From contig CAKOQD010000001.1 of assembly GCA_934101185.1 (NCBI GenBank), positions 25,681 through 89,680 on the forward strand: a DNA stretch of 64,000 bases, written 5' to 3'. The notes under the pieces were generated by a model. The model did no database searches. It was given only the letters and a program-made list of their open reading frames with translations, and was not told the origin of the DNA. Shown piece by piece: positions 15,949 to 56,918 of the stretch. The position numbers and the translations under genes were made by a program. The stretch comes from an uncultured Bacilli bacterium. GTDB lineage: Bacteria; Bacillota_I; Bacilli_A; RF39; UBA660. The stretch's first letter is position 1, and each line of letters begins with the position of its first letter.

Positions 15949-18603
15949 CTAAGCACCAGCTCCAAGAAGGACTGCACGAGCAGAGTTGCTAGCGTTCGCG
16001 CCACCTTCGCCGCGGTAGAAGTTGAAGGCGCCGGCGTTAGCACCATCAAAGTAGTAACCGCCGCGCACAACCCAAGGGTAGTTAGAGAACACGAAGCTGG
16101 CGTTATCTTCATACCAGTTAGCTGTTCCACCTGTAGGAGCCATTTCTTTTGTTGCATCTCCTAATTTTCCTCTTGTATATTCTGTCCCACTTGTTCCGTA
16201 ACTATATTTGTCATAATACTTAGCAGTAGGGAATGCGTATGTTCCTGTTAATGATGTGCCATCATATAAAATTCCTGTAAATGCTGAATTATATGATGAT
16301 ACATGTCCACTCATTTGTTGTCCATTTGGATATACCATATTACCCATCATATATTCATATGCTCCACCACTCATGTCATATACTCCATATACATTTCCTG
16401 TAGTACTTGCACTTTGTCCTAATGCTGTTGTATATGAATTACATGTTGCACCATTTGATGTAGATCCTTCACTTTGTGGTCCACATCCTGTTGTATATGT
16501 ATTTGCACTATTTATTGCTACTTCTTTATTTATTCCATATTTACTATGTGACAAGTATACTACTGCTCCCCATTCTATATTCTTCATCATATGAGCTTCA
16601 TCAGTTGTTGCAAATCCATATTGGTTTCCTGATTCATTCATCTTTTGGATTCCATTAAAGAATGTTCCTACTTGTGCTCCTCTCCATGATGTTACATTGG
16701 GTAATATTCTCGGTCTTATTGTTTGTAAGTTACATCCTGAACCTACTGCTACATTTTTTGATACTGTACAACTAGTATCACTTGATACTTCAAACTTACC
16801 TACCCAGATTCCTGTTAATTCTTCATTTTTTTCTCTTACGTTGTTATCATTCTTATCCCACCAGAATGCTGGATGAGTATATGTAGAAGTTCCTGCTTTT
16901 AATCCTCCATTTATACTATCAGTACATGTTTCACTTGTACTACTAGTCCCTGTTACTGCATCAGTACACTTTATTGTACCAGTACTTGCTGTACTACTTT
17001 CAAACTTTATTTGTATTTCTTCTGGTGTATTTGTATTTAAATAAGTATAAGTATACCTTGGTACCCATACCCACATAGTATTAATACCATCCATTGGTAT
17101 CTCAGTACCAGCCTCTGCATTAAGTAAATCACTACGAGTACCAGCACTAACCATCTTATACTCATCAACCTTAGTAATAGTATTAGAAGCACTAACTATC
17201 TTATAAACACTAGTACAAGAAGTATCAGATCCATTAGGACACACATACTTACCAACTAAACTACTAGATATTGCACTACTAGTAGGACTAACCAAATCAT
17301 ACTTATTAGTACTAGTATTATAATTAATACCACTTCCAACTTTAGTACTATAAACAGTAGATGTTGTCTCACCACTTGCAGTCCAATTCTGACCAGATGT
17401 ACCACCAGCAGTAGCACTATCAGTATAAGTTACATGAGAATTACTAGGATAAGTAAAAGTATCCAAAACACCATTATCATTATTTTTATTGACACTACTA
17501 TCTTTTGCATACTTAACAGTAATTAAATAAACATCTCCAACTGCAGCAGTGTCTGAATAAGTATTACTATTGGTACCACTTATAGCATTAGCAACAGTAG
17601 TAGCACTACCACCATTCTTTGCAACTGTAACAGTCAATTTATCATAACTTGCCTCACTAGATACAGTAGCTTTAAATCCAAAAGTACCAGCAGTATTAAT
17701 ATTAACAGTTATTTTTGACATACTATTAGCACTATTAATATTATAACCACCACTTGTAAAAGAAGTATAAGTCTTATACTGATTAGAAGTACCAGAAATA
17801 GAAACCGTCTTATTACTTGTAACATCTTCCTTTTTAATATTCTCATCAACAGTCACAGCATTAGCCCACATCTTTTTATCATAATCATACCATTTATTAT
17901 TACTATCAATATTATTTACATCTGCTTTCTTCCATACATCCTTAGTGCTATCATAATAAACTGGTATCATATTACTAGATAATACTGGTTCATTTGCACC
18001 ACTATTATCTAAATTACCTACAATTTCACTAAAATACTGCTCAGCCTCAAGCTTCAACTTTAAAAATACTTGTTGTTCAGATATCTCATCTAAATTAGCA
18101 TCTTCACTAATCCATAATCTTAATTTATATGTGTCTTTTTTACCTGTTCTTAATTCTTTTTCATTTAATAAATCATCTAATTCTGACAATGTAAGTGGTC
18201 CAATTTCTTTACCATTTACCTCTAAACCTATCTTAATTAATCCTTTATCTAACAAAGTTCCAGTATAAGACGCTTTACTTGCCTCATCATCTATTAATAA
18301 AACTTTATACATTGCATTAGCACTACCAGTATTCTCTACCGTAAAACTATAAACATCTTCCTGAAGCAGTCCATCAACATCAGACATAGAACTAAGTCCT
18401 AAATCTATACCAGTTGATGGTTCAGTAAGAACAACTTCTAAACTACCAAGTTTAACTATTTGATTGTTTGAATCAGTAGTAGTCCCTGAAAATATCGCAT
18501 AAGACTGACCTACTAAAATAAGACAAAGCCCAATCAAACCTACACCAAATAATATAACTGATAATTTTGTTTTTCTATTCAAACTTAAAAATCTATCAAT
18601 CAT
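15949..18603 (-). CDS. secreted protein with TasA-type N-terminus, central beta-rich insert and C-terminal FGE-sulfatase/C-type-lectin-like domain carrying VR1 (DGR target-like)
   Basis: The FGE-like blocks are 'GIWVGKFEVS', 'HMMKNIEWGAVVYLSHS', 'GNVYGVYDMSGGAYEYMMGN' and 'PWVVRGG'. The N-terminus has a TM helix followed by 'GQSYAIFSG...LGSLEVVL'. The likely start is ATG at 18603 after GAGGAT; the track start at 18630 is a TTG. Confidence 0.8.
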   Translation of the reverse strand: MIDRFLSLNRKTKLSVILFGVGLIGLCLILVGQSYAIFSGTTTDSNNQIVKLGSLEVVLTEPSTGIDLGLSSMSDVDGLLQEDVYSFTVENTGSANAMYKVLLIDDEASKASYTGTLLDKGLIKIGLEVNGKEIGPLTLSELDDLLNEKELRTGKKDTYKLRLWISEDANLDEISEQQVFLKLKLEAEQYFSEIVGNLDNSGANEPVLSSNMIPVYYDSTKDVWKKADVNNIDSNNKWYDYDKKMWANAVTVDENIKKEDVTSNKTVSISGTSNQYKTYTSFTSGGYNINSANSMSKITVNINTAGTFGFKATVSSEASYDKLTVTVAKNGGSATTVANAISGTNSNTYSDTAAVGDVYLITVKYAKDSSVNKNNDNGVLDTFTYPSNSHVTYTDSATAGGTSGQNWTASGETTSTVYSTKVGSGINYNTSTNKYDLVSPTSSAISSSLVGKYVCPNGSDTSCTSVYKIVSASNTITKVDEYKMVSAGTRSDLLNAEAGTEIPMDGINTMWVWVPRYTYTYLNTNTPEEIQIKFESSTASTGTIKCTDAVTGTSSTSETCTDSINGGLKAGTSTYTHPAFWWDKNDNNVREKNEELTGIWVGKFEVSSDTSCTVSKNVAVGSGCNLQTIRPRILPNVTSWRGAQVGTFFNGIQKMNESGNQYGFATTDEAHMMKNIEWGAVVYLSHSKYGINKEVAINSANTYTTGCGPQSEGSTSNGATCNSYTTALGQSASTTGNVYGVYDMSGGAYEYMMGNMVYPNGQQMSGHVSSYNSAFTGILYDGTSLTGTYAFPTAKYYDKYSYGTSGTEYTRGKLGDATKEMAPTGGTANWYEDNASFVFSNYPWVVRGGYYFDGANAGAFNFYRGEGGANASNSARAVLLGAGA
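15952..16119 (-). other. DGR-type variable region VR1 (3' end of 15949-18603)
   Basis: The patch is about 55-60% G+C by eye. It encodes NWYEDNASFVFSNYPWVVRGGYYFDGANAGAFNFYRGEGGANASNSARAVLLGAGA. Its differences from VR3 follow an NNC-codon pattern (see findings). Confidence 0.7.
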
Positions 18604-18702
18604 AATATCATCCTCTATCGTTACAATCAATACTATTATCTAATATATATGATACCACATTTAATAATTCAAAACAAGAAAAAAAGACAAAGTATTAAAA
18701 CT

Positions 18703-21093: not shown

Positions 21094-21439
21094 TCTTAAT
21101 CAATCCCTTCTTTTTATAATAAAATCCTAATAATTTGTAACTTATAATTAAAAGAAACAACACACAAGGAATAGCAACTGCTATTTTAACTATAATAGAT
21201 GAAAACAACTCAGTAATAAGCAACATAATACCAGTATCACAAGCAATTATAACAATAAGCTTTTTCATAATACTATTATAAGATTCCTTCCTAGTATCAA
21301 CATTATACATATTTAAAAATAACTTTAACTCAACAGGCAAACCCCTCTTAGTAATCTTTTTAACCTTTCTTAACTCTATTAAATAATAATAAAACATAAC
21401 AAGTATAAAAGTTATAATAAATAAACACACATATCTCAT
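21083..21439 (-). CDS. small membrane protein, unknown function
   Basis: 118 aa with 3 hydrophobic helices; overlaps the leuS start by 11 nt. Confidence 0.4.
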
Positions 21440-21631
21440 ATAAAAACCTCCATATAACTAAACTAAACCTATTATAACACCAAACAAGTACTTTTAACAA
21501 TAGTAAAATAAAACCATTACAAACTTCTAAGCATTAAACATTTCATTCTTTTTTATAGCTATATTTTCACCAAAATATTGCATTAATCACATTTTTCCAT
21601 ACATTTTACAACTATTTTTACACATTTTTCC

Positions 21632-21658
21632 AAAACAAAACCTACCATAAAGGTAGGT
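21632..21658 (-). terminator. intrinsic terminator after tex
   Basis: ACCTACC / GGTAGGT stem with a 5-nt loop, followed on the minus strand by TTTTGTTTTGG. Confidence 0.6.
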
Positions 21659-21734
21659 AAAATATTATAATTATTTCTAATTCTAATTCAACTGAACAAT
21701 TTTTAAAAAATAAGAAAATTGTTCACTAAAAACA

Positions 21735-23940: not shown

Positions 23941-24013
23941 TTAGTGAACGGATGTGAACGGTACTGAACGCTAGTGAACGGTACTGAACGCTAGTGAACG
24001 GTACTGAACGCTA
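23941..24013. repeat. phased tandem repeat: TGAACG x7 at exact 10-bp spacing (20-bp unit GTGAACGGTACTGAACGCTA x3)
   Basis: Read directly from the sequence: TGAACG ends every printed 10-nt block from 23941 to 24010. The array is GC-richer than its flanks and lies about 75 nt upstream of the tex start. Confidence 0.9.
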
Positions 24014-24096
24014 GTAACTAACCACCTTAAGAAGATCAAAGTATAATAAAAGAACTTAGTTTGGTGAAACACAAGTTCTTCTATATAAAATAACAC

Positions 24097-24367: not shown

Positions 24368-24991
24368 CTAAATCACTTTTAATATTTCCTTTAAATATAA
24401 TAATATTGCAAAATCAGAAAAATCAGAAGTTACTCTTTTTCTTTTTGATATTATAACCGGATCAAATGTCCCTTTCCTATCTCTTGGCATATCTATTGTT
24501 ATTTCTCCTGAACTTGTTTTTATTTTCTTTCCTTTTGATGAATGTCCATTTTTCTTATTCGTTATTTCTTCTTTTGTTTCTAATGTATACAATCTTTTTA
24601 TCTCTTCAGGCATTTTATTTTTATATGTATCTGCAAAATAAGGAAATGTTTTATCTATTAGTTTAAATAAATCTGGCATTACCTTTACTCCTTGAAAAGT
24701 CAATTGTGCCGCTCTTTTTCCTTTTTCTTCTCCAAGTGTTATATAAAGCACTTTTTCTGTTCCCCTTCTTGATATATTTTTAAATTGTTGCATCCAAAAG
24801 TCAGTATCATAATTTACATCTATACCATATGTTAAAAATCTTCTTTTACCTTCAATCGTTATTCCTATAAAAGTATACATGTCTCTTGTTCTAACCCTTC
24901 CTTCGACTTCAAGTTGTACTGGTGTCTTTATCGTATAAATCACCACATACATCCTATCTAACTCTCTATATTTTAGTTTCTTTAATTCCAT
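24368..24991 (-). pseudogene. scrambled or degenerate IS256-family transposase remnant
   Basis: Residues 1-140 resemble the central DDE region ('GRVRTRDMYTFIGITIEGKRRFLTYGI...FWMQQFKNISRRG'), but the Asp positions are not conserved. They are followed by an N-terminal-type block ('IDMPRDRKGTFDPVIISKRKR'). This order is impossible for an intact gene. The likely start is MELKK at 24991 after GGAGGGAGG. Confidence 0.55.
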
Positions 24992-25010
24992 TTTCTTTTC
25001 CTCCCTCCAT

Positions 25011-25043
25011 AAAAAAAACTTAATCATTTTTTAGATGATTAAG
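25011..25043 (-). terminator. intrinsic terminator after the 25119-27824 gene
   Basis: CTTAATCAT / ATGATTAAG 9-bp stem followed by T8 on the minus strand. One arm is duplicated at 25050-25060. Confidence 0.6.
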
Positions 25044-25071
25044 TTTTTTAGATGATTAAGTCTATTTTTTA

Positions 25072-25111
25072 ATTAATTAACCACGTCAGACACAGTTAAG
25101 TGAAAAGGGTC
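25072..25111. mobile_element. IS256-type terminal inverted-repeat copy abutting VR2
   Basis: The minus strand reads GACCCTTTTCACTTAACTGTGTCTGACGTGGTTAATTAATTAA. This is near-identical to the repeat at 15945-15905 and inverted relative to the one at 15424-15447. Confidence 0.55.
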
Positions 25112-25118
25112 GACTTCG

Positions 25119-27824
25119 TCAGTCCAGAACACCAAGCACGGCACGAGCAGAGTAGCTAGAGTCCGCGTGACCATCGAATCTGTCGTAGGAGAACGCGCCG
25201 GCTTTAGCACCACTGCCACAGACCCCACCACGGAAGAACCAAGGGGCGGAACGGCTAGGAAAGGCAACGTAATCTCCATACCATGAAGTAAAGTCAGATG
25301 AAACTGGAGCCATTTCTTTCGTTGCATCTCCTAGTTTTCCTCTTGTATATTCTGTATCTCTTGTTCCATAACTATATTTATCATAATATCTCTTACTTGG
25401 GAATGCATATGTCCCTGTAAATGATGTATTATCATTTCCTAAGTATCCAGTAAATGCTGAGTTATATCTACTATCTGTTGAATCACCACTCATTTGTTGT
25501 CCATTACTCCATACCATGTTACCCATCATATATTCAAGTGCTCCACCATTCATGTCATATACTCCATATACATTTCCTGTAGTACTTGCACTTTGTCCTA
25601 ATGTTGTTGTATATGAATTGCATGTTGCACCACTACTTGTTGAACCTGCACTTTGTGGTCCACATCCTGTTGTAAGTGTATTTGCACTATTTATTGCTAC
25701 TTCTTTATTTATTCCATATTTACTATGTGATAAATATGTTACTGCTCCCCATTCCATATTCTTCATCATATGTGTTTCATCAGTTGTTGCAAACCCATAT
25801 TGGTTTCCTGTTGCACTCATCTTTTGTATTCCATTAAAGAATGTTCCTACTTGTGCTCCTGTCCATGATGTTACATTTGGTTTTATTAATGGTCTTATTG
25901 TTTGTAAGTTACATCTTGAACCTACTGCTACATCATTTGATGCTGTACAACTAGTATCGCTTGATACTTCAAACTTACCTACCCAGATTCCTGTTAATTC
26001 TTCTCCGGTTTCTCTTACGTTGTTATCATTCTTATCCCACCAGAATGCTGGATGGGTATAAGTAGAAGTTCCTGCAACTAATCCATTATTTGTTGCATCA
26101 GTACATGTTTCACTTGTACTTGATGTTCCAGTAACATTATCAGTACATTTTATTGTACCAGTACTTTCTGTACCTTTTTCAAACTTAATCTTTATTTCTT
26201 GTGGTGTATTTGTATTTAAATATGTATAAGTATATCTTGGTACCCATACCCACATTGTATTAATTGCATCCATTGATATTTCAGTACCAACTTTTGAATT
26301 AATTAAATCATTACGTGTTACGGTCTTACTTTTATACTCATCAACCTTTGTAATACTACTAGAAGCAGTAACTATTTTATAAGGTGTAGTACAAGACAAA
26401 TCAGAACCAGTAGGACAAACAAACTTACCTACCAAAGAACTAGATACAGAAGACAAACTAATATTTTTAAGATCATATTTACTTGTAGAACTATTATAAG
26501 AAATAGAACTTCCTACTAAAACACCAGTACCACCAGTAATTGCTCCACTAGCAGTCCAATCTTGTCCAGAAGTACCACCAGCAGTAGCACTATCAGTAAA
26601 AGTAACAACACTATTCGCAGGATACGTAAATGTATCTAAAATAGCATTATCATTATAAGTATTACCACTACCATCTTTAGTATATTGAGCAGTTATAACA
26701 TAAACATCTCCAACTGCTGCAGCATCAGAATAAGTTTTACTAACATTATTACCACTTATTGCATTCGCAACAGTAGTAGCACTACCACTATTTTTACTAA
26801 CAGTAACAGTTAATTTATCCCAATTAGCTTCACTTGAAACAGTAGCCTTAAATCCAAAAGTACCAGCAGTCTTAATATTAACAGTTATCTTAGTATAACT
26901 CTTAGCATTATCAATATTATAACCCCCACTAGTAAAAGTAGAAGGAGGAACTGAAGCAATAGTTTTATTAGAAATAGAAACACTCTTATTCTTTGTAATA
27001 TCATCAGCTCTACTTGAAGAAACAACAGTTACTGCATTAGCCCACATCTTGTTATCATAATCATACCATTTATTAGCTTCTTTAGCATTATTACTATCAG
27101 CTTTCTTCCAACTATCACTAGTACTATCATAATAAACTGGTATCATATTTGATGTAAGTTCTGGTGCATTTGCTCCACTTGTATCTAATTTGCCTTCAGT
27201 AGTTTGCTCACTATATAATTGAATCTTATAACTCATTATAGTATTTTTATTTTTAACATTATAACTATTCGGAGTATCATAATCCAACCATAATTTCAAT
27301 TTATAAGAACTACTAGCAGACCTCTCTAATAAACCAGAATCAAGAATTATATTACCATCACTATCAACTTTTACAACTTTAAAATCTTCTCCATCTTTAC
27401 TTATACCAGCTTTAACATATTGAGCAGGAATACAAACATCAGCATTAACCGAAGAATCTCCTACTGTATAAGAATTACCAACAGTACAACTATTAATAAG
27501 AGACAATTTATATTTAGCATTAATACTACCAGTATTCTTTAATGTAAAATCATAAGTAGTACTATCACTAAGAGCCACATCATCCGGAGTAGGAATAGCA
27601 TTATTAACACTAATAACTGGAGTAGTATTTTCTAATGTTATTACCAAACTACCTGCACTAATAGTATTAATAGACTGAGTATAAACACTTTTAAATATAA
27701 AAGCATAAGATCCTCCGACAAATATAAATAATATAGAAATAATACCCAATAAGAAACTAATCTTAACACCAGGATTATCCTTATATTTTACCTTTAACTT
27801 ATCAAACTTATTAAAAAAATTCAT
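25119..27824 (-). CDS. secreted protein with TasA-type N-terminus, central insert and FGE/C-type-lectin-like C-terminal domain carrying VR2 (DGR target-like)
   Basis: 901 aa; paralog of 15949-18603, sharing 'KWYDYDNKMWANAVTV', 'NTMWVWVPRYTYTYLNTNTP' and 'GNVYGVYDMNGGALEYMMGN'. Confidence 0.8.
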   Translation of the reverse strand: MNFFNKFDKLKVKYKDNPGVKISFLLGIISILFIFVGGSYAFIFKSVYTQSINTISAGSLVITLENTTPVISVNNAIPTPDDVALSDSTTYDFTLKNTGSINAKYKLSLINSCTVGNSYTVGDSSVNADVCIPAQYVKAGISKDGEDFKVVKVDSDGNIILDSGLLERSASSSYKLKLWLDYDTPNSYNVKNKNTIMSYKIQLYSEQTTEGKLDTSGANAPELTSNMIPVYYDSTSDSWKKADSNNAKEANKWYDYDNKMWANAVTVVSSSRADDITKNKSVSISNKTIASVPPSTFTSGGYNIDNAKSYTKITVNIKTAGTFGFKATVSSEANWDKLTVTVSKNSGSATTVANAISGNNVSKTYSDAAAVGDVYVITAQYTKDGSGNTYNDNAILDTFTYPANSVVTFTDSATAGGTSGQDWTASGAITGGTGVLVGSSISYNSSTSKYDLKNISLSSVSSSLVGKFVCPTGSDLSCTTPYKIVTASSSITKVDEYKSKTVTRNDLINSKVGTEISMDAINTMWVWVPRYTYTYLNTNTPQEIKIKFEKGTESTGTIKCTDNVTGTSSTSETCTDATNNGLVAGTSTYTHPAFWWDKNDNNVRETGEELTGIWVGKFEVSSDTSCTASNDVAVGSRCNLQTIRPLIKPNVTSWTGAQVGTFFNGIQKMSATGNQYGFATTDETHMMKNMEWGAVTYLSHSKYGINKEVAINSANTLTTGCGPQSAGSTSSGATCNSYTTTLGQSASTTGNVYGVYDMNGGALEYMMGNMVWSNGQQMSGDSTDSRYNSAFTGYLGNDNTSFTGTYAFPSKRYYDKYSYGTRDTEYTRGKLGDATKEMAPVSSDFTSWYGDYVAFPSRSAPWFFRGGVCGSGAKAGAFSYDRFDGHADSSYSARAVLGVLD
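25122..25283 (-). other. DGR-type variable region VR2 (3' end of 25119-27824)
   Basis: GC-rich patch encoding WYGDYVAFPSRSAPWFFRGGVCGSGAKAGAFSYDRFDGHADSSYSARAVLGVLD. It keeps the same invariant skeleton (W, PW, RGG, GA.AGAF, SARAV) as VR1 and VR3. Confidence 0.65.
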
Positions 27825-27949: not shown

Positions 27950-28012
27950 ACTCTATAACTAATTTTCTACTGCTCGCCGCAAGATTTTACCTTGCAGGCT
28001 CGCTCATGTTAC

Positions 28013-37675: not shown

Positions 37676-40600
37676 ATGTCTATTGATCCACAAACACAAG
37701 ATATTAATCGTGCTTTATATGAACTAGTAAAGAATCAAATAAAACCAAGTGATTATTCACTAAAAATGGCTGAAATATATTCTGATAGATTGTTTGAAAT
37801 ACCTAAAATTGAAAATTATGATTATAATGAAATCAGATTAAGAGATATGAAAATAAACTTTAATGAAGGTAAAGTCAGTTTAAAAGAAATTGTCAGGAAT
37901 TGGGAATTATTTAAAGACAAAGATTTAAGTTATTGTTTATTAAATGATGAGAATAATAAAAATAATATTATAGATAGTTCATTAAAAAAATTTATGAATA
38001 ATTATGGTACATTAGCGCCTTTAATAGTAGAAAATAATGATATATATACATTTATTGATACCATTTCTAATACAACTTCTGACGAGGAAAAATATAATTA
38101 TTTAAAACAATTTACTGATGATATATTAAGCAATACTTATAGAAAATATGGAGATTACAGACCACCTATTGAACTAACAGATGAACAATTTAAAGAAATA
38201 TTTAAGTACTCATCAATGGAAGAATATTTAAAAGTATTTAATGAATATAGTGCAATACCTGTAATAGAAGAATTAAAAACATTACCCCAAGACTATATTT
38301 TCAATATGTCAATTCCGTTTCAAGAATTATTAAACTCTGATGTTTTATCTTTCATTGGCACATATGGATTAAAAAACATTGTTGATTTCGATAATGAATG
38401 TGGTCATTTCTTCACAAAAAATAATTGTGAAATGTTAAAGCTGATGGATGATATGTATTTACATTATTCAAATAATGAACATGATCCTAATAAAACAATC
38501 CATACAAAAAAGTATAAAGATGAAAATGGTAATTATATTGATAGACCATATACTAAAGATGAATTCTATGAAGCAATGAAAAGAATGATAATATATGGAC
38601 CTAGTGATTGGAATTATGTTGATAAAGCTCCAGATTATAGAGATATGACAGGAGAATTCAGAACTAGAAATACAGAGTTATTTATTTCAGAAGAAGCACC
38701 AGAAGATTTACAAAAAATGTTTTATACAAAGTCTATTACTCCTCGACTATTATTAGAGCATCCAGAATATATTCAATTCTTAAACGGAAAAGATTTAAGT
38801 TCATGTTTAAAAAATAGAGACATACAAGTCAAAGGCAGTAATGCATTAGATGGATATGAGAATATTTATAAATTCCTAGGTAATAAAACTGACTTTAATG
38901 GAGTTATGAATTTTATTACTGAATACAGTGATGTTTTAGATATTGTCTTCAATAAAAGAATACCAGGCTACTATCAATATGAGATAGAATTTTCAATTAA
39001 TGATGATATAGACCAAATTCAAAGCAAAATTCATGAAACTTTAAGAAAACTTATTATTGAAAAAAGATTGACTTATCCTACACATATTCCTAAGAATTTA
39101 AGCGAAAAATATCCAACTATGTTTTTAGATAAAAATGCACCTCAAGAATTACAAGAAGCTTTTTATAGTAGAACAATATCATCAGAGTTTATTTTGTCAA
39201 ATCCATCATATAGAGAATATTTAAAAAATGTTGATTTAGAGGTTTTATTTAAATATATGCCTGTAAACATTGCAAATGAAGAAGATAGATATGAACAAGT
39301 TAATTTAGTTAGTGGTATTAAACAAATATTCGGTTCAGATGATGCCTTTGATGTAATGTCTATATATGGAAAATATATTGAACAAGTATATGAGGCAAAT
39401 AACCTTAAAAACTTCTTATATAATCCAGAGTTTACGCAAGATGGTTTTCTTGATGAACTTGATAAAACCATATTACAGAATATTATTGATGGAAATATGA
39501 AGTACGATGAGAATATTCCCAGTCATTTCAAAAATAATAATCCAACTTTATTCTTAGGAGCAAATGTGCCACAAGAAATAAAAGATAAATTCTATAATAG
39601 AGAATTTACATTAAAAGATTTTAACGATAATCCAGAATTATTAAATATATTTGAAAATACGAATATAGCATGTGCTTTTTCAGAAAATATGTCTTGGATT
39701 ATTCCATTATTTAATGATTCTGAAAATTTTAAAACTGGAAACTATAATCGTATGAAAGTTATATCAGAATATTCTAAAATACAAGATGTTGAACTTCAAA
39801 AAGAATTTAAAAAATATGTTATAGAATTTAAAACTAACATTAATGTAGAAAAAATAGAATATGTTTCAGAAGTTTTGTCAAGACTTTCATTATCAAATTC
39901 AAGTGAAATATTTACATTTAGAAAAGAACTTGCTACGCAAATATTAAAATCTAATAATCCTTTAGAAAGCTTAGGTAAGATCGAAGATATATTTATAAGA
40001 AATAATATTCCAACAGTTGGTAAAATATATTCTTGCTTTGAAATACTACATCCAGATTTTCAAGGTTTTAATTTTGAAAGTTCTATGGTTTCACCAGTAT
40101 TAAAAAAGTCATCAACAAAAAATAAAAAAATAATAGTTTTTTCAGATTTAATAAAATGTTCTTTCGGATCCAATAATAAGTCTGTTAATGCATATTTAAA
40201 AAATATAGAGTTTGGTTCTAGTCTATATGAAAGTATAAAAACTGGACAAATTCAATTTGATACACTTGGTGAAATAGAAAAAAGAAAATTAATAATATTT
40301 AGCAATCATTTGGCAACATTATATAATAATACAATGAAAGCAAAAATGGGAAACGAAATGTTTATATCTAGTGGAGATGTTTTAAATGATATTTTAGAAC
40401 TTTCAAAAAAACTCTCTCCAGATGGGACATTAGATTATAATTTAGCAGATAGAGTTATTCGAATGTTCTGTGGATTTACTGGAATTGACACATTAGAACA
40501 AGCTAAAGAATTTATTGAACAAAAAGTTAAAACAGCTGATTATAGAAATAGACATGCTTCTAACTCAGATATGATATTAGAGCAAGGAGATTTCATTAAA

Positions 40601-42019
40601 GGAATTGGCGATATTAAATATTTAAGAAATATTTTACAAAATGGTAGTGTTGCAAAAGAGTACTTAGGTTCAAGTGCTACTAGTGATGCAACTCCACTTG
40701 ATACTGATATTTCAATGATAATGAGTTCAGACGGAACAATAAGTGAAAAAATGGGTGCAACTATGGCTTCAAGTTATGGGCCTATATGGTTTGTACTTAA
40801 AAATGATGATAGATTTATGACTACTAGAACTAGTAGTGAAACATTAGAAGCAAAAAGAGATATATCCAAAATGGAGGTATTTTATACAGGAATTTTAGGA
40901 CAAGGACATTATGGAATTAGAACAGGTTTTGCTTCAAGTGAAATTAATTATATTGTTATGGAAAACTATGATCCAAGAGTTGGATTAGAAATAGCAATGA
41001 ATGGCTTTTACATTCCTGTAGCTAATAAAGAAGGTAAAATTGTATTTACTCCAAAAGATTATGATGAATTAAGAACTAAAATGAGTGGTTTATCGTATTT
41101 TGATGAGAATAATTATACTTTCTCTGAAAATCTAATTACAGAAGAAACAGAATATTTTGCCGAGCAAATAGAACAAAGCAATTATGAAGTTCAAGCAAAA
41201 AGAGAAAAGATTAATAGTATTATTAAAAAATCTCTTGAAGAATTAGGATTGCATTTAAAAACTAATATTGATGGTAATTTAACCGAAGGATTTGTAGAAT
41301 TAATTGATACTGGTTCAACTGGAAGAGGAACAAATAAACCTGGCGATGGGGATTTTGATTTTATGATGAGATTGGATAAAATAATATTATCAAACCCTTC
41401 TAGACTAAATGAATTAAAACAAACTATATTAAGAAATCTTGGTAGAGAAAATTCCTCTGAATTAACAGGAACTGGAGATTTTAGATTAAAGAGTGTTCAA
41501 ATAGATAGCAATACAAGTGTAGATATTGATATTACATTTACTGAAAAAACAGATAAAGTATCGTATTCTACTGATATGGCATTACAAGATAGACTTGCTA
41601 CTATTCAAAGAAATGACCCTGAAAAATATAAATATGTTGTTGCCAATATATTATTAGCTAAACAAGTACTTAAAAAAGCCGAAGCATATAAACCTAATCG
41701 TGGTGAAATTCCTCAAGGTGGTTTAGGTGGAGTTGGAATCGAAAATTGGATTCTTCAAAATGGTGGTTCATTCATTGATGCTGCTAAAAGTTTTGTTGAG
41801 TCTGCTAATGGAAAAAGTTTTTCAGAATTTCAATCAACTTACCAAATATGGGATTTTGGAGAAAATCATCTAGCCGAAAGAAGAGGATTATATTCACATG
41901 ATAATTTTGTTTCAAATAATATGAGTGAAGCAGGATATCAAAAAATGGTTCAAGCTTTAAAAGAATATTTAAAATCTATGGAGATTTCACAAATAGATAC
42001 TGAAACTATAAAACGATGA
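37676..42019 (+). CDS. giant (1447-aa or longer) cytoplasmic repeat protein with C-terminal Pol-beta-superfamily nucleotidyltransferase domain
   Basis: 'DTGSTGRGTNKPGDGDFDFMMRLD ... SVDIDITF' is the NTase G[ST]x9-13DxD signature plus a third Asp. Three units of about 145 aa repeat ('AP(E/Q)(D/E)LQ..FY(T/S)(K/R)(S/T)I...'). The frame is open upstream to 37448, and an RBS plus ATG lie at 37412 in the same frame, interrupted only by TGA at 37445. Confidence 0.8.
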   Translation: MSIDPQTQDINRALYELVKNQIKPSDYSLKMAEIYSDRLFEIPKIENYDYNEIRLRDMKINFNEGKVSLKEIVRNWELFKDKDLSYCLLNDENNKNNIIDSSLKKFMNNYGTLAPLIVENNDIYTFIDTISNTTSDEEKYNYLKQFTDDILSNTYRKYGDYRPPIELTDEQFKEIFKYSSMEEYLKVFNEYSAIPVIEELKTLPQDYIFNMSIPFQELLNSDVLSFIGTYGLKNIVDFDNECGHFFTKNNCEMLKLMDDMYLHYSNNEHDPNKTIHTKKYKDENGNYIDRPYTKDEFYEAMKRMIIYGPSDWNYVDKAPDYRDMTGEFRTRNTELFISEEAPEDLQKMFYTKSITPRLLLEHPEYIQFLNGKDLSSCLKNRDIQVKGSNALDGYENIYKFLGNKTDFNGVMNFITEYSDVLDIVFNKRIPGYYQYEIEFSINDDIDQIQSKIHETLRKLIIEKRLTYPTHIPKNLSEKYPTMFLDKNAPQELQEAFYSRTISSEFILSNPSYREYLKNVDLEVLFKYMPVNIANEEDRYEQVNLVSGIKQIFGSDDAFDVMSIYGKYIEQVYEANNLKNFLYNPEFTQDGFLDELDKTILQNIIDGNMKYDENIPSHFKNNNPTLFLGANVPQEIKDKFYNREFTLKDFNDNPELLNIFENTNIACAFSENMSWIIPLFNDSENFKTGNYNRMKVISEYSKIQDVELQKEFKKYVIEFKTNINVEKIEYVSEVLSRLSLSNSSEIFTFRKELATQILKSNNPLESLGKIEDIFIRNNIPTVGKIYSCFEILHPDFQGFNFESSMVSPVLKKSSTKNKKIIVFSDLIKCSFGSNNKSVNAYLKNIEFGSSLYESIKTGQIQFDTLGEIEKRKLIIFSNHLATLYNNTMKAKMGNEMFISSGDVLNDILELSKKLSPDGTLDYNLADRVIRMFCGFTGIDTLEQAKEFIEQKVKTADYRNRHASNSDMILEQGDFIKGIGDIKYLRNILQNGSVAKEYLGSSATSDATPLDTDISMIMSSDGTISEKMGATMASSYGPIWFVLKNDDRFMTTRTSSETLEAKRDISKMEVFYTGILGQGHYGIRTGFASSEINYIVMENYDPRVGLEIAMNGFYIPVANKEGKIVFTPKDYDELRTKMSGLSYFDENNYTFSENLITEETEYFAEQIEQSNYEVQAKREKINSIIKKSLEELGLHLKTNIDGNLTEGFVELIDTGSTGRGTNKPGDGDFDFMMRLDKIILSNPSRLNELKQTILRNLGRENSSELTGTGDFRLKSVQIDSNTSVDIDITFTEKTDKVSYSTDMALQDRLATIQRNDPEKYKYVVANILLAKQVLKKAEAYKPNRGEIPQGGLGGVGIENWILQNGGSFIDAAKSFVESANGKSFSEFQSTYQIWDFGENHLAERRGLYSHDNFVSNNMSEAGYQKMVQALKEYLKSMEISQIDTETIKR

Positions 42020-48626: not shown

Positions 48627-49073
48627 CTATTTTTTACTAGGTATTAAAGCAGTTATAATAAAACCAAATATAAACAGAACTATCCAAAACAACGGTTTAG
48701 ATGTATATCTAACAATACAACTAGTATTTAAAATCAAAACAACTTTACCAACAACATCACTAACACGAATTGGATCATCTAAAGCATTATTATAATCACC
48801 TTTAGTTACTACATTAAGTTCATTAACTCCAACAATTCTATGAGTTATATAATCATCATCATTTTTATATGTTACTATATCATTAACAAAATAAGTATCT
48901 TGTTTCTTAATCAATATTATATCCCCAACCTTAATAGTGGGTTGCATACTTCCAGAAACAACTGTAAACATCTGATAACCAAAAAATGAAATATGTAAGA
49001 TATTTAATAGTTTTATAATTAAAATAAGTATAACTAAAATATAAAAGAAAATACTAAATATTTTTTTTAACAT
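48627..49073 (-). CDS. sipW: signal peptidase I, SipW (archaeal/ER Ser-His) type
   Basis: 'VVSGSMQPTIKVGDIILIKK', 'THRIVG', 'TKGDYNNALD' and a C-terminal TM helix. Confidence 0.8.
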   Translation of the reverse strand: MLKKIFSIFFYILVILILIIKLLNILHISFFGYQMFTVVSGSMQPTIKVGDIILIKKQDTYFVNDIVTYKNDDDYITHRIVGVNELNVVTKGDYNNALDDPIRVSDVVGKVVLILNTSCIVRYTSKPLFWIVLFIFGFIITALIPSKK

Positions 49074-49082: not shown

Positions 49083-49649
49083 TCATAAATTTATTAATTC
49101 AGTAACATTTGTATCATACTGAGTACCAACAATTTCAATAGGTACCACCAATTCACTAACATTCATTCCAACATAAGTATCATTATCAATATCATCCACT
49201 ATATACAGCCATTTCCAATATATATTAATATCAATACCATCTATATCATTATGTTTAAGTGTACCTTCTATACCATTACTACTAAGTTCTTTAGTCATCT
49301 CTTTATCAGTATAAAACTTCAAATTATTTGGTGCATTTACAATCCCATTAATTTTAACATTAAACTTAACACCAGTCTCAGTATTAGCATTATTTAATTT
49401 AAGATTAATTACACCACTAGTTCCTGGAGCAATTTTACCATTAGAAAGAGTCGATTCATCATATGTACCATTAATATTTATATTTATAACAGTATTTTTA
49501 TTATCACCAAGAAATGTCCACTTTGCAACATTTAAAAAGCCATAATTTGAAACATTATCAGTATAACTTGCATAAGTCAAAGTATTACCAAAAACTACAA
49601 TACCAATAACTATAAACAAAACAACCATTAATAATCTTTTAACCCTCAT
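49083..49649 (-). CDS. TasA/camelysin-like fibre subunit candidate
   Basis: 'LTYASYTDNVSNYGFLNVAKWTF', 'IAPGTSGVINLKLNN' and 'NIYWKWLY'. It is comparable with B. subtilis TasA 'TWAAFND...', 'KPGDK' and the C-terminal W. Confidence 0.5.
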   Translation of the reverse strand: MRVKRLLMVVLFIVIGIVVFGNTLTYASYTDNVSNYGFLNVAKWTFLGDNKNTVINININGTYDESTLSNGKIAPGTSGVINLKLNNANTETGVKFNVKINGIVNAPNNLKFYTDKEMTKELSSNGIEGTLKHNDIDGIDINIYWKWLYIVDDIDNDTYVGMNVSELVVPIEIVGTQYDTNVTELINL

Positions 49650-50137
49650 TCCTCCATCACCACCTTATTTTTGTTTAAAATAAACTTATCTAAAACAAAG
49701 AATAACAAGAAGAAAATAATTATCAAAAACTTATACTTTAAAAACAAAGTAATAATTAAAAACTTATAAACATACTTTCCAACAACATCATCAATAGATA
49801 TCATTTCATCACATGCACCATTAGCATCACCCTTTGTTATTATTCCATCATCTGCTATAGAAACAATTCTATGAGTAACATAAGAATCATCAACTTTATA
49901 AGTAATGATATCCCCCACTTTATAATTATCATAACTTTTTACAACAATCAAATCATTAATATGCAATTCACTTTCCATACTAGATGATGCAACTTCAAAG
50001 AAATAATACTTATCAAAAAATGAAACAACATCTTTATTAGTCAATCTCTGATACCCAACTATACAAATATATATAATCAATACAATGCATATAAAATAAA
50101 AAGTAAAATCAACTATTTTCCTTAAAAAATTAATCAT
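49646..50137 (-). CDS. sipW: second SipW-type signal peptidase I
   Basis: 'VASSSMESELHINDLIVVKS', 'THRIVS', 'TKGDANGACDE' and a C-terminal TM helix. Confidence 0.7.
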   Translation of the reverse strand: MINFLRKIVDFTFYFICIVLIIYICIVGYQRLTNKDVVSFFDKYYFFEVASSSMESELHINDLIVVKSYDNYKVGDIITYKVDDSYVTHRIVSIADDGIITKGDANGACDEMISIDDVVGKYVYKFLIITLFLKYKFLIIIFFLLFFVLDKFILNKNKVVMEE

Positions 50138-52233: not shown

Positions 52234-52297
52234 AAATCAACCCACCAAAAAAATTATAACACAAAATAAAAAACCCTACAAGGGTTATTAAACATAA

Positions 52298-52374
52298 TGG
52301 TCGGAGAGACAGGATTTGAACCTGCAACCCCTTGGTCCCAAACCAAGTGCTCTACCAAGTTGAGCCACTCTCCG
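52298..52374 (-). tRNA. tRNA-Pro (anticodon TGG)
   Basis: Acceptor CGGAGAG/CTCTCCG, anticodon loop TTTGGGA, T-loop GGTTCAAATCC, encoded CCA. Confidence 0.9.
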
Positions 52375-52378
52375 ATAA

Positions 52379-52455
52379 TGGCGTCCTGGAAGGGATTCGA
52401 ACCCCTGACCGCCGGCTTAGAAGGCCGATGCTCTATCCAGCTGAGCTACCAGGAC
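52379..52455 (-). tRNA. tRNA-Arg (anticodon TCT)
   Basis: Acceptor GTCCTGG/CCAGGAC, anticodon loop CTTCTAA, T-loop GGTTCGAATCC, encoded CCA. Confidence 0.9.
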
Positions 52456-52499
52456 ATCCATCTGCATTTCATAAATGCTATTTAATTATACAACAAAAC

Positions 52500-53423: not shown

Positions 53424-53471
53424 ACACCTCACCAATTAAATATATGAAAAAACATGTGCATTTAGCACATG

Positions 53472-53723: not shown

Positions 53724-53752
53724 TATATTTTATGAGAAAAATCTATAAAACG

Positions 53753-54256: not shown

Positions 54257-54283
54257 ATAATAAACCTCCTAAAGAATTATATG

Positions 54284-54308
54284 AAAAAAAAGAGTTATTA
54301 GAACTCTT
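54284..54308 (-). terminator. intrinsic terminator about 180 nt downstream of the VR3 gene
   Basis: AAGAGTT-ATTAG-AACTCTT stem followed by a T-run on the minus strand. Confidence 0.6.
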
Positions 54309-54485
54309 TATAATTTGCTATTCAATCAACACGATGAAACCAAAAATGAAAAGGAAAAGTACGAAAGTTGTAAAACATTTTTTTCCTTTCTTTCTATTTT
54401 GCTGTGCCAGTTCTTTGAACTGGGTCAGTTTGGGAGAAAAAAAATAACAATTAGTTTATCATCTCCAAAGGAGCCACTGACTTCG

Positions 54486-56918: not shown

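What the first reader, a model, noticed from the sequence alone, without database searches (positions are those of the whole stretch)
15949..56918. Multi-target diversity-generating retroelement (DGR) signature with no retroelement core anywhere in 64 kb
Seen in the sequence: three paralogous minus-strand genes (15949-18603, 25119-27824, 54486-56918) share a 3' scaffold of about 1 kb that is roughly 85-90% identical by eye. Each scaffold ends in a patch of about 160 nt where identity collapses and G+C rises to about 55-60%, in a locus that is otherwise about 25-30% G+C. A fourth gene (28013-29494) has a comparable GC-rich 3' patch on a different fold.

Established knowledge: DGR variable regions sit at the extreme C-terminus of C-type-lectin/FGE-sulfatase-fold proteins such as Bordetella phage Mtd and Treponema TvpA. 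They are rewritten from a template repeat (TR) by a dedicated reverse transcriptase with adenine-specific mutagenesis.

Inference: these genes are DGR targets served in trans. No ORF in the window has RT palm motifs, there is no Avd-like small helical ORF, and I could not find an A-rich template copy of any VR. The core is therefore either elsewhere in the genome (remote targets or a prophage-borne core) or has been lost. IS256-type ends abut two of the VRs, which could be related to such a loss.
Basis: partly seen in the sequence, partly recalled or inferred. Interest (0 to 1): 0.9.

Follow-up and report, generated by a model that had tools for sequence, protein, structure and literature searches.

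The report
Remote DGR target genes, core elsewhere
Three (probably four) surface-protein genes of an uncultured, AT-rich human-gut Bacilli bacterium end in short GC-rich cassettes written by a diversity-generating retroelement whose template and reverse transcriptase lie outside this window; I found that machinery in related strains, and in this strain's lineage the cassettes look frozen, two of them next to an insertion-sequence scar.

Summary
Genes A (15949-18603), B (25119-27824) and C (54486-56918) share a 3' scaffold of about 1 kb at 87-88% identity. Each ends in a 150-160-nt patch of about 60% G+C in a 28.5% G+C window. No TR, RT, Avd or MutS-like gene is in the 64 kb.

The DGR reading is supported. 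In related gut strains I found the core: TR, then a MutS-I-like ORF, bAvd and an RT with IGNYTSQ and YMDD motifs. It sits next to a paralogous target. There are two template families:
- C differs from TR1 at 18 adenines and 2 other bases.
- A differs from TR1 at 18 adenines and 8 other bases.
- B differs from TR2 at 22 adenines and 6 other bases.

In strains that carry the core, every sample has a different cis VR, with 0-1 non-adenine mismatches. The scaffold models as a C-type-lectin/FGE fold, closest to the DGR protein TaqVP.

In the window's own lineage, VRs A, B and C are invariant across samples. IS256-family ends lie 24-25 nt past the VRs of A and B. In B the IS end destroys the conserved stop-codon hairpin. 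C keeps the hairpin and spacer, but the sequence diverges 19 nt before the point where the TR begins elsewhere.

Gene D shows a DGR-like allele pattern, but no template was found for it.

This is a new member of a known kind, of moderate interest.

The parts
15949..18603 (-). Gene A: 884-aa DGR target paralogue with an N-terminal hydrophobic segment and a C-terminal CLec/FGE-fold domain
   Evidence: ORF. The exact protein is in public collections as P0142. Fold. Its positional orthologue is followed directly by the DGR core in L033.
15949..16103 (-). VR-A. The TR-homologous core is 15976-16103 and the 3' IMH-like end is 15949-15975. Type-1 backbone.
   Evidence: 18 adenine and 8 non-adenine mismatches to TR1 over 123 nt, P = 1.9e-6. 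Identical in 6 samples. G+C 0.59.
15424..15945 (-). Internally deleted IS256-family remnant with both inverted-repeat ends. It contains the transposase C-terminal fragment 15514-15861 and starts 3 nt after gene A's stop codon.
   Evidence: Pfam Transposase_mut, 2.6e-15, profile positions 294-378 of 379. IR ends. The element is absent from strain L001, which lacks about 550 bp here.
25119..27824 (-). Gene B: 901-aa DGR target paralogue
   Evidence: ORF. Protein identical in 11-12 contigs.
25119..25270 (-). VR-B. Type-2 backbone, partly decayed.
   Evidence: 22 adenine and 6 non-adenine mismatches to TR2 of L006, P = 3.2e-11. Identical in L001-L004.
24368..25111 (-). IS256-family fragment. The left inverted repeat is 25084-25111 and the transposase N-terminal fragment is 24368-25027. 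The IS end replaces the 3' arm of the stop-codon hairpin (25107-25123).
   Evidence: Pfam Transposase_mut, 7.2e-25, profile positions 7-113 of 379. IR match. The hairpin no longer folds. The fragment is present in all strains L001-L004.
54486..56918 (-). Gene C: 810-aa DGR target paralogue. Its N-terminal part resembles gene D.
   Evidence: ORF. The exact protein is P0150. Alignment.
54486..54646 (-). VR-C. Type-1 backbone, a near-perfect adenine-mutagenised copy of TR1.
   Evidence: 18 adenine and 2 non-adenine mismatches to TR1, P = 6.9e-10. Both non-adenine sites recur in A_win and L048, and one of them also in L047. Invariant in window-lineage samples apart from one AAC/AGC site.
54476..54490 (-). 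Hairpin ACTGAC-GAA-GTCAGT overlapping gene C's stop codon, at the exact point where VR and TR homology ends
   Evidence: Folds in C_win and in the cis targets of L007 and L033. Absent from the TR flank. Conserved in all cis targets seen.
54318..54475 (-). Remnant of the VR-to-TR spacer. It is conserved with core-bearing loci up to GGTTTCATCGTGTTGATTGAATAG, which ends 19 nt before the TR in L007 and L049. After that the sequence diverges towards the SpoIIIAH-like gene.
   Evidence: Alignment, sequences, coordinates. The same breakpoint is present in L017-L023.
28013..29485 (-). Gene D: 490-aa protein with a weak DUF6273 match. It is a probable fourth DGR target on a different scaffold.
   Evidence: Pfam DUF6273, E = 1.7e-4, below the curated cut-off. 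The exact protein is P0164.
28082..28204 (-). GC-rich candidate VR of gene D. It ends about 23 codons before the stop codon.
   Evidence: Window allele against the L050 allele: 30 of 120 differences in the patch (12/14/4 by codon position) against 30 of 1350 elsewhere (9/10/11). No template was found.

Best explanation
**What it is.** Genes A, B and C, and probably D, are target genes of a chromosomal diversity-generating retroelement in an uncultured, low-G+C, spore-forming Bacilli bacterium of the human gut. Each ends in a variable repeat (VR) that forms the C-terminal ligand-binding face of a C-type-lectin/FGE-fold domain.

**How the VRs were written.** This follows the standard DGR route:
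- A non-coding template repeat (TR) is transcribed.
- The DGR reverse transcriptase, with bAvd and here a MutS-domain-I-like accessory protein, copies it while misincorporating opposite template adenines.
- The cDNA replaces the VR. Replacement is guided by 5' homology and by the 3' end of the VR plus a hairpin placed exactly where TR and VR homology stops.

**Where the core is.** In related strains the core (TR, MSL, Avd, RT) sits immediately downstream of another paralogue of the same family, next to Big_2 and tsaEBD genes. It is not in this window, so A, B and C are remote targets.

**Two template families.** TR1 and TR2 circulate in the population. The same gene position carries a TR1-type or a TR2-type VR in different strains. 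In the window, C and A are TR1-derived and B is TR2-derived.

**Current state (inferred).** In the window's lineage the three VRs are no longer being rewritten.
- B lost the 3' arm of its hairpin to an IS256-family insertion. That insertion is old and shared by all strains seen, and B has since collected non-adenine changes.
- A has an IS remnant 3 nt after its stop codon.
- C keeps its hairpin and spacer, but the sequence breaks off 19 nt before the position of the TR.

The cognate TR1 core is either lost or silent in this lineage.
For: **Shown**
1. *The core exists in relatives.* The TR is followed by ORFs matching Pfam MutS_I (2.9e-8), bAvd (2e-21; NCBIfam DGR Avd 7e-18, below its cut-off) and RVT_1 (1e-14). 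The RT sequence contains IGNYTSQ and YMDD.
2. *Canonical layout.* VR, hairpin, spacer of about 330 nt, TR, then the core, in L007, L008, L033 and L043.
3. *The core is active in relatives.* Seven different cis VRs lie next to one identical TR. They carry 14-23 adenine mismatches and 0-1 non-adenine mismatches. The gene-A orthologue in strain L001 has 14 and 0.
4. *TR1.* It was predicted from the window's type-1 VRs and then found in L049.
5. *Window VRs against the templates.* C is 18 adenine and 2 other; A is 18 and 8; B is 22 and 6 against TR2. P ranges from 7e-10 to 2e-6.
6. *Fold.* The AF2 model has pLDDT 81 and pTM 0.86. The best PDB match is the DGR variable protein TaqVP (5VF4, E = 7.5e-7, probability 1.0). 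Mtd, FGE enzymes and TvpA follow, but only with non-significant scores (E 0.08 to about 7).
7. *VR invariance in the window lineage.* A is identical in 6 samples. B is identical in 11-12 contigs. C is identical in 6 loci and in 11 of 13 full-length cluster members.
8. *IS next to the VRs.*. The hairpin is broken in B.
9. *Synteny.* The core lies directly 3' of the gene-A position in L033.

**Established knowledge**
- A hairpin/cruciform just beyond the end of TR/VR homology is needed for efficient homing (PMC3240598).
- Remote targets and MSL accessory genes are documented (PMC5758913).
Against: - No TR or RT from this very genome was seen. TR1 comes from a 1-kb contig of another sample (L049), where the adjacent cis VR is type 2, so that contig may be chimeric.
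- A and B carry 8 and 6 non-adenine mismatches to the best available templates. Their true templates were different alleles, or the VRs have drifted.
- VR invariance was measured on contigs found through exact-protein look-ups, which favour near-clonal relatives. The same bias applied to the core-bearing contigs, though, and those VRs all differ.
- Bacteroides DGRs can be tightly controlled rather than lost (bioRxiv 10.1101/2024.11.15.621889), so a silent but intact core elsewhere in the genome is not excluded.
- The causal role of the IS insertions is inferred from position only.
Confidence: 0.8

Rival explanations
1. The targets are still live and served in trans. The same genome carries an intact TR1-type core outside the 64 kb, for example at the radical-SAM/tsaEBD locus. 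At least VR-C, and possibly A, is still diversified, but rarely or only under particular conditions, so assemblies show one dominant allele.
For: - C keeps an intact hairpin and spacer and is an almost perfect TR1 derivative, 18 adenine and 2 other mismatches.
- One AAC/AGC difference at a template adenine separates C alleles between samples.
- The species does possess the core: strain L001, 97.6% identical, has a gene-A VR with 14 adenine and 0 other mismatches to TR2.
- Consensus assemblies hide minority variants.
- Some gut DGRs are tightly controlled (bioRxiv 10.1101/2024.11.15.621889).
Against: - VR-C is the same in 6 loci and in 11 of 13 full-length cluster members, although their scaffolds differ.
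- VR-A and VR-B are identical across 5-12 contigs.
- With the same kind of sampling, cis VRs next to an intact core differ in every sample.
- A and B have IS sequence where the 3' recognition elements should be.
Confidence: 0.25
2. Differences between strains at these loci come mainly from recombination or gene conversion among the paralogous targets, or from exchange between strains, which swaps whole 3' ends. Retrohoming in each lineage plays little part, and the DGR acted only in a distant ancestor.
For: - Scaffolds are mosaic. Gene A of L001 carries a C-like insertion upstream of the VR.
- The target in L033 is an A-5'/other-3' hybrid.
- L021 and L029 have divergent scaffolds but identical VRs.
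- The same gene position carries type-1 or type-2 VRs in different strains.
Against: - Conversion cannot create new adenine-restricted variants, yet every core-bearing sample has a unique cis VR with 0-1 non-adenine changes.
- The VR of gene A in L001 is a perfect derivative of the TR from the Hadza MAG (L006), a genome from the same Hadza dataset, not a copy of any paralogue seen.
- Conversion and retrohoming can both operate. This rival is complementary rather than exclusive.
Confidence: 0.15
3. There is no DGR involvement. The patches are ordinary fast-evolving paralogue ends, or foreign GC-rich DNA acquired horizontally.
For: None beyond the absence of a core in the window.
Against: - Cognate templates with a DGR core were found in relatives.
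- Mismatches concentrate on template adenines, with P from 2e-6 to 3e-11.
- Variation follows the NNC codon pattern.
- The fold is CLec, closest to a DGR variable protein.
- The hairpin is conserved at the boundary of homology.
Confidence: 0.02

Closest known systems
Treponema denticola DGR (TvpA plus remote targets)
   Same: - One chromosomal, non-phage core serves several paralogous CLec/FGE-fold targets.
- Some targets are far from the RT; seven non-adjacent targets are reported for Treponema in PMC5758913.
- The VR is at the extreme C-terminus.
   Different: - The Treponema DGR uses an HRDC accessory gene (architecture C in PMC5758913). This one has MSL plus Avd.
- TvpA is only a weak structural match (2Y3C, E = 1.1).
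- Here two template families share the same targets across strains.
- In the window the core is absent.
Legionella pneumophila DGR and other architecture-D (MSL-containing) DGRs (PMC5758913)
   Same: - A small MutS-like accessory ORF is present together with avd and the RT.
- The element is chromosomal.
- The targets are cell-surface proteins.
   Different: - Gene order here is TR, MSL, avd, RT, with the target upstream.
- The host is an AT-rich Firmicute.
- The target family has no Pfam model: no precomputed domain on any of the 120 listed homologues, of 4,766 with E <= 1e-5.
- I did not place the RT in a phylogeny.
Thermus aquaticus TaqVP (PDB 5VF4, PMC6328139)
   Same: - It is the best structural match of the VR-bearing domain (Foldseek E = 7.5e-7, probability 1.0).
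- It is the only sequence-profile hit in the PDB (E = 0.075).
- The CLec fold has the variable residues at the C-terminal end.
   Different: - Only 14-15% sequence identity and TM-scores of 0.4-0.5.
- There are large insertions.
- The proteins here are 800-900 aa with long N-terminal regions.
Bordetella phage BPP-1 DGR (Mtd; IMH and hairpin/cruciform target recognition, PMC3240598)
   Same: - Adenine-specific TR-to-VR transfer.
- A stem-loop placed directly after the point where TR and VR homology ends, overlapping the stop codon.
- Avd plus RT.
   Different: - BPP-1 is a phage DGR with a single adjacent target.
- Its hairpin has an 8-bp GC stem and a GRNA tetraloop. Here the stem is 6 bp with a GAA loop.
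- For the cis targets, TR and VR are identical right up to the hairpin, so no separate IMH/IMH* difference is visible.

Membership tests
Diversity-generating retroelement (whole system) | A DGR-clade reverse transcriptase encoded in the locus | tested here: not met
   **Window.** No RT by tblastn, and none by a profile of 120 DGR RTs on the six-frame translation (best 6.6 bits; control 520 bits).

**Relatives.** The feature is met in L005-L016, L033-L044. The 333-aa RT matches RVT_1 at 1e-14 and carries IGNYTSQ and YMDD motifs.
Diversity-generating retroelement (whole system) | A template repeat (TR) homologous to the VR and lying outside the target's coding sequence | tested here: not met
   **Window.** No fourth copy of any patch. 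The other GC island examined, 52271-52492, is two tRNA genes.

**Relatives.** TR2-family templates are found in L005-L014, L033-L043. TR1 is found in L049.
Diversity-generating retroelement (target / VR) | VR-TR mismatches restricted to template adenines | tested here: inconclusive
   The templates used come from other strains.
- C against TR1: 18 adenine and 2 other mismatches, essentially met.
- A against TR1: 18 and 8.
- B against TR2: 22 and 6.

All three are highly enriched for adenines, with P from 7e-10 to 2e-6, but not exclusive. In core-bearing relatives the criterion is fully met, with 13-23 adenine and 0-1 other mismatches.
Diversity-generating retroelement (target / VR) | VR at the C-terminus of a C-type-lectin/FGE-sulfatase-fold domain | tested here: met
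   - AF2 model of the last 317 aa of gene A: pLDDT 81, pTM 0.86.
- Foldseek top hits: TaqVP 5VF4 (E = 7.5e-7), then Mtd, FGE enzymes and TvpA, but only with non-significant scores (E 0.08 to about 7).
- Pfam FGE-sulfatase is only sub-threshold.
Diversity-generating retroelement (target / VR) | 3' target-recognition elements: a GC-rich VR end followed by a hairpin/cruciform where homology ends | tested here: met
   - **C:** the hairpin ACTGAC-GAA-GTCAGT at 54476-54490 is intact and identical to that of the cis targets.
- **B:** the 3' arm is replaced by an IS end and the hairpin no longer folds.
- **A:** IS sequence starts 24 nt after the VR 3' motif, and no comparable hairpin is present.
Diversity-generating retroelement (target / VR) | Hypervariability confined to the VR within populations | tested here: not met
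   **Window lineage.** VR-A is identical in 6 samples, VR-B in 5 loci and 11-12 contigs, and VR-C in 6 loci apart from one AAC/AGC site.

**Across lineages.** The feature is met. The same gene positions carry different VRs, and cis VRs differ in each core-bearing sample. Read-level heterogeneity could not be tested.
Diversity-generating retroelement (accessory genes) | An Avd, HRDC or MSL accessory gene next to the RT | tested here: not met
   **Window.** None.

**Relatives.** bAvd matches PF22296 at 2e-21, and the MSL ORF matches MutS_I at 2.9e-8. This corresponds to architecture D of PMC5758913.
IS256 / Mutator-family insertion sequence (the elements abutting VR-A and VR-B) | A Mutator-family transposase flanked by terminal inverted repeats | tested here: met
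   - Only fragments are present: N-terminal profile positions 7-113 of 379 next to B and C-terminal positions 294-378 of 379 next to A.
- Imperfect inverted ends flank the gene-A remnant.
- No intact copy is in the window.

The most novel reading that the evidence does not exclude
**Reading 1: the IS as an off-switch.** The IS256-family element in this clade may insert preferentially at the DNA structure that marks a DGR target, the VR 3' end with its hairpin. It would then act as a natural off-switch that freezes individual VRs.
- All four distinct copies of its end in the DNA I fetched lie 24-37 nt past a VR or inside a DGR spacer.
- Both copies in the unbiased 64-kb window do so.
- The junctions differ, so the insertions were independent.

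**Reading 2: template replacement.** Two template alleles, TR1 and TR2, served by near-identical cores, may reprogramme the same set of remote targets when one template replaces the other by recombination. Whole repertoires of surface proteins would then switch backbone at once.
Probability: 0.25. Interest if true: 0.55.

Novelty: new member of a known kind. Interest (0 to 1): 0.4.

Why it matters
- **Method.** DGR targets can be recognised from raw sequence alone in an AT-rich genome. The signal is a GC-rich patch at a paralogue's 3' end, variable in the NNC codon pattern. The missing template can then be predicted from the VRs and recovered from public data.
- **New DGR system.** This adds a multi-target, MSL-type chromosomal DGR in an uncultured human-gut Bacilli lineage.
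- **Unannotated target family.** The target family has 4,766 homologues at E <= 1e-5, and none of the 120 listed carries a Pfam domain. Modelling shows a CLec fold.
- **A natural experiment.** Closely related strains carry live, switched or frozen VRs at the same loci. The frozen ones coincide with IS insertions in the target-recognition region or with absence of the core. This bears on how DGR activity is turned off, and on how often 'orphan' VRs in MAGs are relics rather than active targets.
- **Overall.** It does not change the understanding of how DGRs work.

Tried and rejected
1. **First search patterns were over-specified.**
   - The combined type-1/type-2 pattern found only TR2 in GTDB genomes and nothing in IMG/VR.
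   - The first type-1 pattern found nothing in JGI metagenomes.
   - Later VRs (L047) showed that positions I had fixed, TTT.ATGGTGCT, are themselves variable.
   - A corrected pattern gave one hit, L048. This is a 1.4x-coverage contig with a type-1 VR next to a TR2-like element carrying a VR-type 3' flank. I treat it as probably chimeric.
2. **I first read gene C as the cis target whose core had been deleted.** The adjacency of C to the SpoIIIAH-like gene is the norm: of 22 contigs, all six loci with upstream sequence show it. The break is therefore old, or C is a segmental copy of target plus spacer.
3. **Sister RT clusters (P0005, P0135) did not carry TR1.** They carry further TR2-family alleles.
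4. **The first structure model was too poor to use.** It covered 366 aa with 39 sequences and reached pLDDT 58. Foldseek returned only noise. I replaced it with a trimmed, deeper model.
5. **The GC island at 52271-52492 is not a hidden template.** It is tRNA-Arg plus tRNA-Pro.
6. **No template for gene D was found.** Nothing in the window or the fetched loci. The three IMG/VR hits to its 3' motif are chance matches in phages of 58-67% G+C.
7. **Pfam and NCBIfam do not place the target domain.** Only a sub-threshold FGE-sulfatase match appears.
8. **I could not retrieve the window's own 284-kb NCBI contig** to look for the core beyond the window.


Full report

Yes. The window is a 28.5% G+C bacterial chromosome segment. 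It carries LeuRS, Tex, FtsA/FtsZ, SpaA pilins, sporulation genes and five tRNAs.

Three minus-strand genes match proteins held in public collections exactly:
- A, 15949-18603
- B, 25119-27824
- C, 54486-56918

Over 900 nt of their 3' halves they are 86.7-88.1% identical, and the differences are biased to third codon positions (29-33, 31-33 and 47-55 differences at codon positions 1, 2 and 3).

Each gene ends in a patch of 150-160 nt:
- G+C reaches 0.62-0.64 per 100 nt.
- Identity drops to 80% (A-C), 68% (A-B) and 60% (B-C).
- The A-C differences fall 14/12/6 by codon position, the reverse of the scaffold bias. Codons look like NNC.

Only six islands in the window reach 0.47 G+C per 100 nt: the three patches, the patch in gene D, a tRNA-Arg/tRNA-Pro pair, and the 5' end of an amidase gene.

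**2. Is the core really absent from the window?**

Yes.
- Low-stringency blastn finds no further copy of any patch.
- tblastn with the cognate RT, Avd and MutS-like proteins finds nothing better than E = 0.4.
- Profile HMMs built from 120 DGR RTs and from the Avd and MSL proteins score at most about 10 bits (E >= 0.03) on the six-frame translation. The RT positive control scores 520 bits.

**3. Finding the core elsewhere**

I wrote the conserved positions of the patches as a degenerate pattern, with N at the variable positions, and scanned one genome per GTDB species. Two 'Bacilli bacterium' MAGs matched, one of them from the Hadza gut dataset.

In both MAGs the match is a non-coding, AAC-rich copy. 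It is followed by three ORFs:
- a 117-143-aa ORF with MutS domain I (Pfam 2.9e-8)
- bAvd (Pfam 2e-21; NCBIfam DGR Avd 7e-18, below its cut-off)
- a 333-aa reverse transcriptase (RVT_1 1e-14) containing IGNYTSQ and YMDD

From my own knowledge, the [I/L]GxxxSQ motif is the hallmark of DGR RTs.

Longer contigs carrying the same or a 98%-identical RT show the full canonical layout:
- the 3' end of a paralogous target gene with its VR
- a stop-codon hairpin
- a spacer of about 330 nt
- the TR, then MSL, Avd and RT
- then a Big_2 protein, DUF421, DUF308, tsaE/B/D, rplM and rpsI

The core is therefore chromosomal, not prophage-borne. It corresponds to the MSL-containing 'architecture D' of Wu et al. 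(PMC5758913).

**4. The core is active in those relatives**

Nine contigs share one identical TR. Eight of them include the adjacent cis VR, and these give seven different VRs, with 14-23 mismatches at template adenines and 0-1 elsewhere.

Strain L001 is 97.6% identical to the window over 21.9 kb. Its gene-A orthologue has a VR that differs from the Hadza MAG's TR at 14 adenines and at no other base.

**5. Two template families**

The window's B, and gene A of L001, have the 'type 2' backbone of these TRs. The window's A and C have a different 'type 1' backbone (...TTCGTG.NC TCT ... CCTTGGGTT.TGCGCGGCGG...).

Type-1 VRs with other residues at the variable positions occur in other strains and in other paralogues (P0143, P0144, P0149/L047, L045, L048). 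Type 1 is therefore a genuinely diversified class.

From these VRs I inferred the TR1 sequence. Gene callers place a spurious minus-strand ORF over the TR, so I searched the protein collection with that ORF. One hit, P0292, read almost exactly as predicted.

Its contig, L049, carries TR1 with the same spacer and the same downstream leader as the other cores.

Mismatches of the window VRs to the best template over a 123-nt core:

| VR | Template | Adenine mismatches | Other mismatches | Hypergeometric P |
|---|---|---|---|---|
| C | TR1 | 18 | 2 | 6.9e-10 |
| A | TR1 | 18 | 8 | 1.9e-6 |
| B | TR2 | 22 | 6 | 3.2e-11 |

The two non-adenine sites in C (TTT/TTC and GGG/GGT) both recur in A_win and L048, and the first also in L047. 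They look like allelic differences in the template rather than drift.

**6. The scaffold fold**

Pfam and NCBIfam do not place the domain. FGE-sulfatase appears only below threshold. The family has 4,766 homologues at E <= 1e-5, and none of the 120 listed carries a precomputed Pfam domain.

- A first AlphaFold model was too poor to use.
- A model of the last 317 residues with 95 sequences reached pLDDT 81 and pTM 0.86.
- Its best PDB matches are the Thermus aquaticus DGR variable protein TaqVP (5VF4, E = 7.5e-7, probability 1.0), then Bordetella Mtd, formylglycine-generating enzymes and Treponema TvpA.
- TaqVP is also the only hit of the family's sequence profile against PDB sequences (E = 0.075; identity of the entry confirmed in PMC6328139).

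**7. State of the three VRs in the window's lineage**

They look static.
- VR-A is identical in six independent samples, including one whose upstream scaffold differs.
- The whole B protein is identical in 11-12 contigs, and VR-B is identical in L001-L004.
- VR-C is identical in six loci and in 11 of 13 full-length members of its 90% cluster, apart from one AAC/AGC site.

These contigs were found by exact-protein look-ups, which favour close relatives. The core-bearing contigs were found the same way, through an identical RT protein, and their VRs all differ. The contrast is therefore meaningful.

**8. What flanks each VR**

*Gene C.* It keeps the hairpin ACTGAC-GAA-GTCAGT across its stop codon. 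This is exactly the element found after every cis VR, it sits where TR and VR homology ends, and it is absent from the TR flank. C also keeps the spacer up to GGTTTCATCGTGTTGATTGAATAG. In L007 and L049 that sequence ends 19 nt before the TR. After it the window diverges into a SpoIIIAH-like gene. The same break is present in all six loci that show this junction, including the divergent strain L017. The break is therefore old. Either a core was deleted here long ago, or C is a segmental copy of a cis target plus its spacer.

*Gene B.* An IS256/Mutator-family end (GACCCTTTTCACTTAACTGTGTCT...) replaces the 3' arm of the hairpin, which no longer folds. An N-terminal transposase fragment follows. 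This is shared by all strains seen. It fits with B being the VR that has collected non-adenine changes.

*Gene A.* An internally deleted remnant of the same IS, about 520 bp long, starts 3 nt after the stop codon. It has both inverted ends and a C-terminal transposase fragment. It is absent from L001, whose gene-A VR is a perfect TR2 derivative.

*The IS end across all fetched DNA.* A solo copy of the IS end sits 2 nt after the stop codon of gene A in L045, at a different junction. Another lies inside the spacer of L013. All four distinct copies of this IS end that I fetched are 24-37 nt past a VR or inside a DGR spacer.

*Why position matters.* In the Bordetella phage system, a hairpin/cruciform just beyond the end of homology is required for efficient homing (PMC3240598). 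An IS landing there should plausibly disable a target. That step is inference, not shown.

**9. Where the core normally lives**

- In L034 and L043 the cis target is a 631-632-aa paralogue downstream of a radical-SAM gene; in L034 rpoA and rplQ lie further upstream.
- In L033, a 189-kb contig, the core follows a 603-aa hybrid gene. Its 5' part is the positional orthologue of gene A. Tex is 97.5% identical to the window, and LeuRS plus the 5' end of gene A are 91.6% identical.
- The downstream context is always Big_2 to tsaEBD.

Recombination between the paralogous targets therefore seems to move the junction. None of these neighbouring genes is in the window.

**10. Gene D**

D (28013-29485) has a different scaffold, with a weak DUF6273 match. 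Its GC patch lies at 28082-28204 and ends about 23 codons before the stop codon.

Between the window allele and the only divergent allele found (L050):
- 30 of 120 patch positions differ, 12/14/4 by codon position.
- 30 of 1350 positions differ elsewhere, 9/10/11 by codon position.

This is a DGR-like signature, but I found no template. D is a probable fourth target of an unknown TR, not a demonstrated one.

**11. Composition**

TR1 is 72% G+C among its non-adenine positions. The MSL-Avd-RT genes beside it are 23% G+C. The GC-rich patches are therefore a property of the template itself, copied into every target. They are not foreign DNA in the target genes.

**12. Verdict**

The genes are remote targets of a multi-target chromosomal DGR whose core is outside the window.

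New here:
- the core and both template families
- the adenine test for each VR
- the fold
- the population contrast between live and frozen VRs
- the repeated association of an IS256-family element with VR 3' ends

Multi-target DGRs with remote targets and MSL accessory genes are known (PMC5758913), and VRs on CLec folds are the rule (PMC8144416). This is a new member of a known kind.

Whether this genome still has a TR1 core cannot be decided from the window.

Noticed in passing
window 15424-15945 and 24368-25111; L045 about 10684; L013 about 75-100: All four distinct copies of one IS256-family inverted-repeat end in the DNA I fetched lie 24-37 nt past a DGR VR or inside a DGR spacer. The junctions differ, so the insertions were independent. 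This may reflect a target preference for the VR 3' hairpin region.
   Followed up: partly
L048 1680-2330 and L049 (read on the minus strand) 930-300: Two short metagenome contigs pair a cis VR of one type with an adjacent TR of the other type: a type-1 VR next to TR2 in L048, and a type-2 VR next to TR1 in L049. In L048 the TR-like copy also has a VR-type 3' flank with the hairpin. These are either assembly chimeras across the shared spacer or real template replacement.
   Followed up: partly
P0189 (homologue; C-terminus printed): In this target protein the reading frame runs from the VR straight into the translated 3' flank of the TR (...ALDYTIRRDLCYYLDNIKFHISNYLYNFGS). VR and TR appear to have recombined, deleting the spacer, or the contig is misassembled.
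   Followed up: no
L033 6752-8563: The 603-aa cis target here is a hybrid. Its 5' part is the gene-A orthologue next to LeuRS and its 3' part resembles other paralogues. The DGR core therefore sits next to Tex and LeuRS in this strain, whereas it follows a radical-SAM gene in L034 and L043 (with rpoA and rplQ further upstream in L034). This suggests a large rearrangement through recombination between paralogues.
   Followed up: partly
TR1 in L049; core genes in L043 5316-7002: The template is 72% G+C among its non-adenine positions, while the adjacent MSL-Avd-RT genes are 23% G+C. The extreme local composition of the TR in an AT-rich genome is unexplained. Avoidance of adenines would not by itself favour G or C over T.
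   Followed up: no
window 48627-49073 and 49646-50137: Two archaeal/SipW-type signal peptidase I genes (TIGR02228, 6.5e-23 and 1.1e-21) sit among small unannotated ORFs. A, B and D have N-terminal '...G.SYA.F' or 'GTYAF' segments reminiscent of SipW-type signal peptides. No link was tested.
   Followed up: no
window 8348-14784: A SpaA-type pilin gene cluster (1238-aa and 695-aa SpaA-domain proteins plus 182-183-aa ORFs) lies directly downstream of gene A. In L046 it is followed by a sortase gene.
   Followed up: no
window 23954-24015: A perfect 20-bp tandem repeat (GTGAACGGTACTGAACGCTA, 3.1 copies) lies between the IS fragment downstream of gene B and Tex.
   Followed up: no
window 37676-42019 (+): A 1447-aa ORF on the opposite strand has no Pfam match. 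It lies in the only stretch where the GC skew changes sign (about 35-42 kb).
   Followed up: no
window 27965-28010: A GC-rich imperfect inverted repeat (GAGCGAGCCTGCAAGGTAAAATCTTGCGGCGAGC) follows gene D's stop codon. It is absent from the L050 allele, where different genes follow D and gene B is missing.
   Followed up: no
L002 16314-17651 and L033 2484-3821, compared with window about 21500-21700: Some strains carry an extra AAA_14/DUF4143 ATPase gene between Tex and the 118-aa ORF. The Fic-gene neighbourhood near 36 kb also varies between strains.
   Followed up: no
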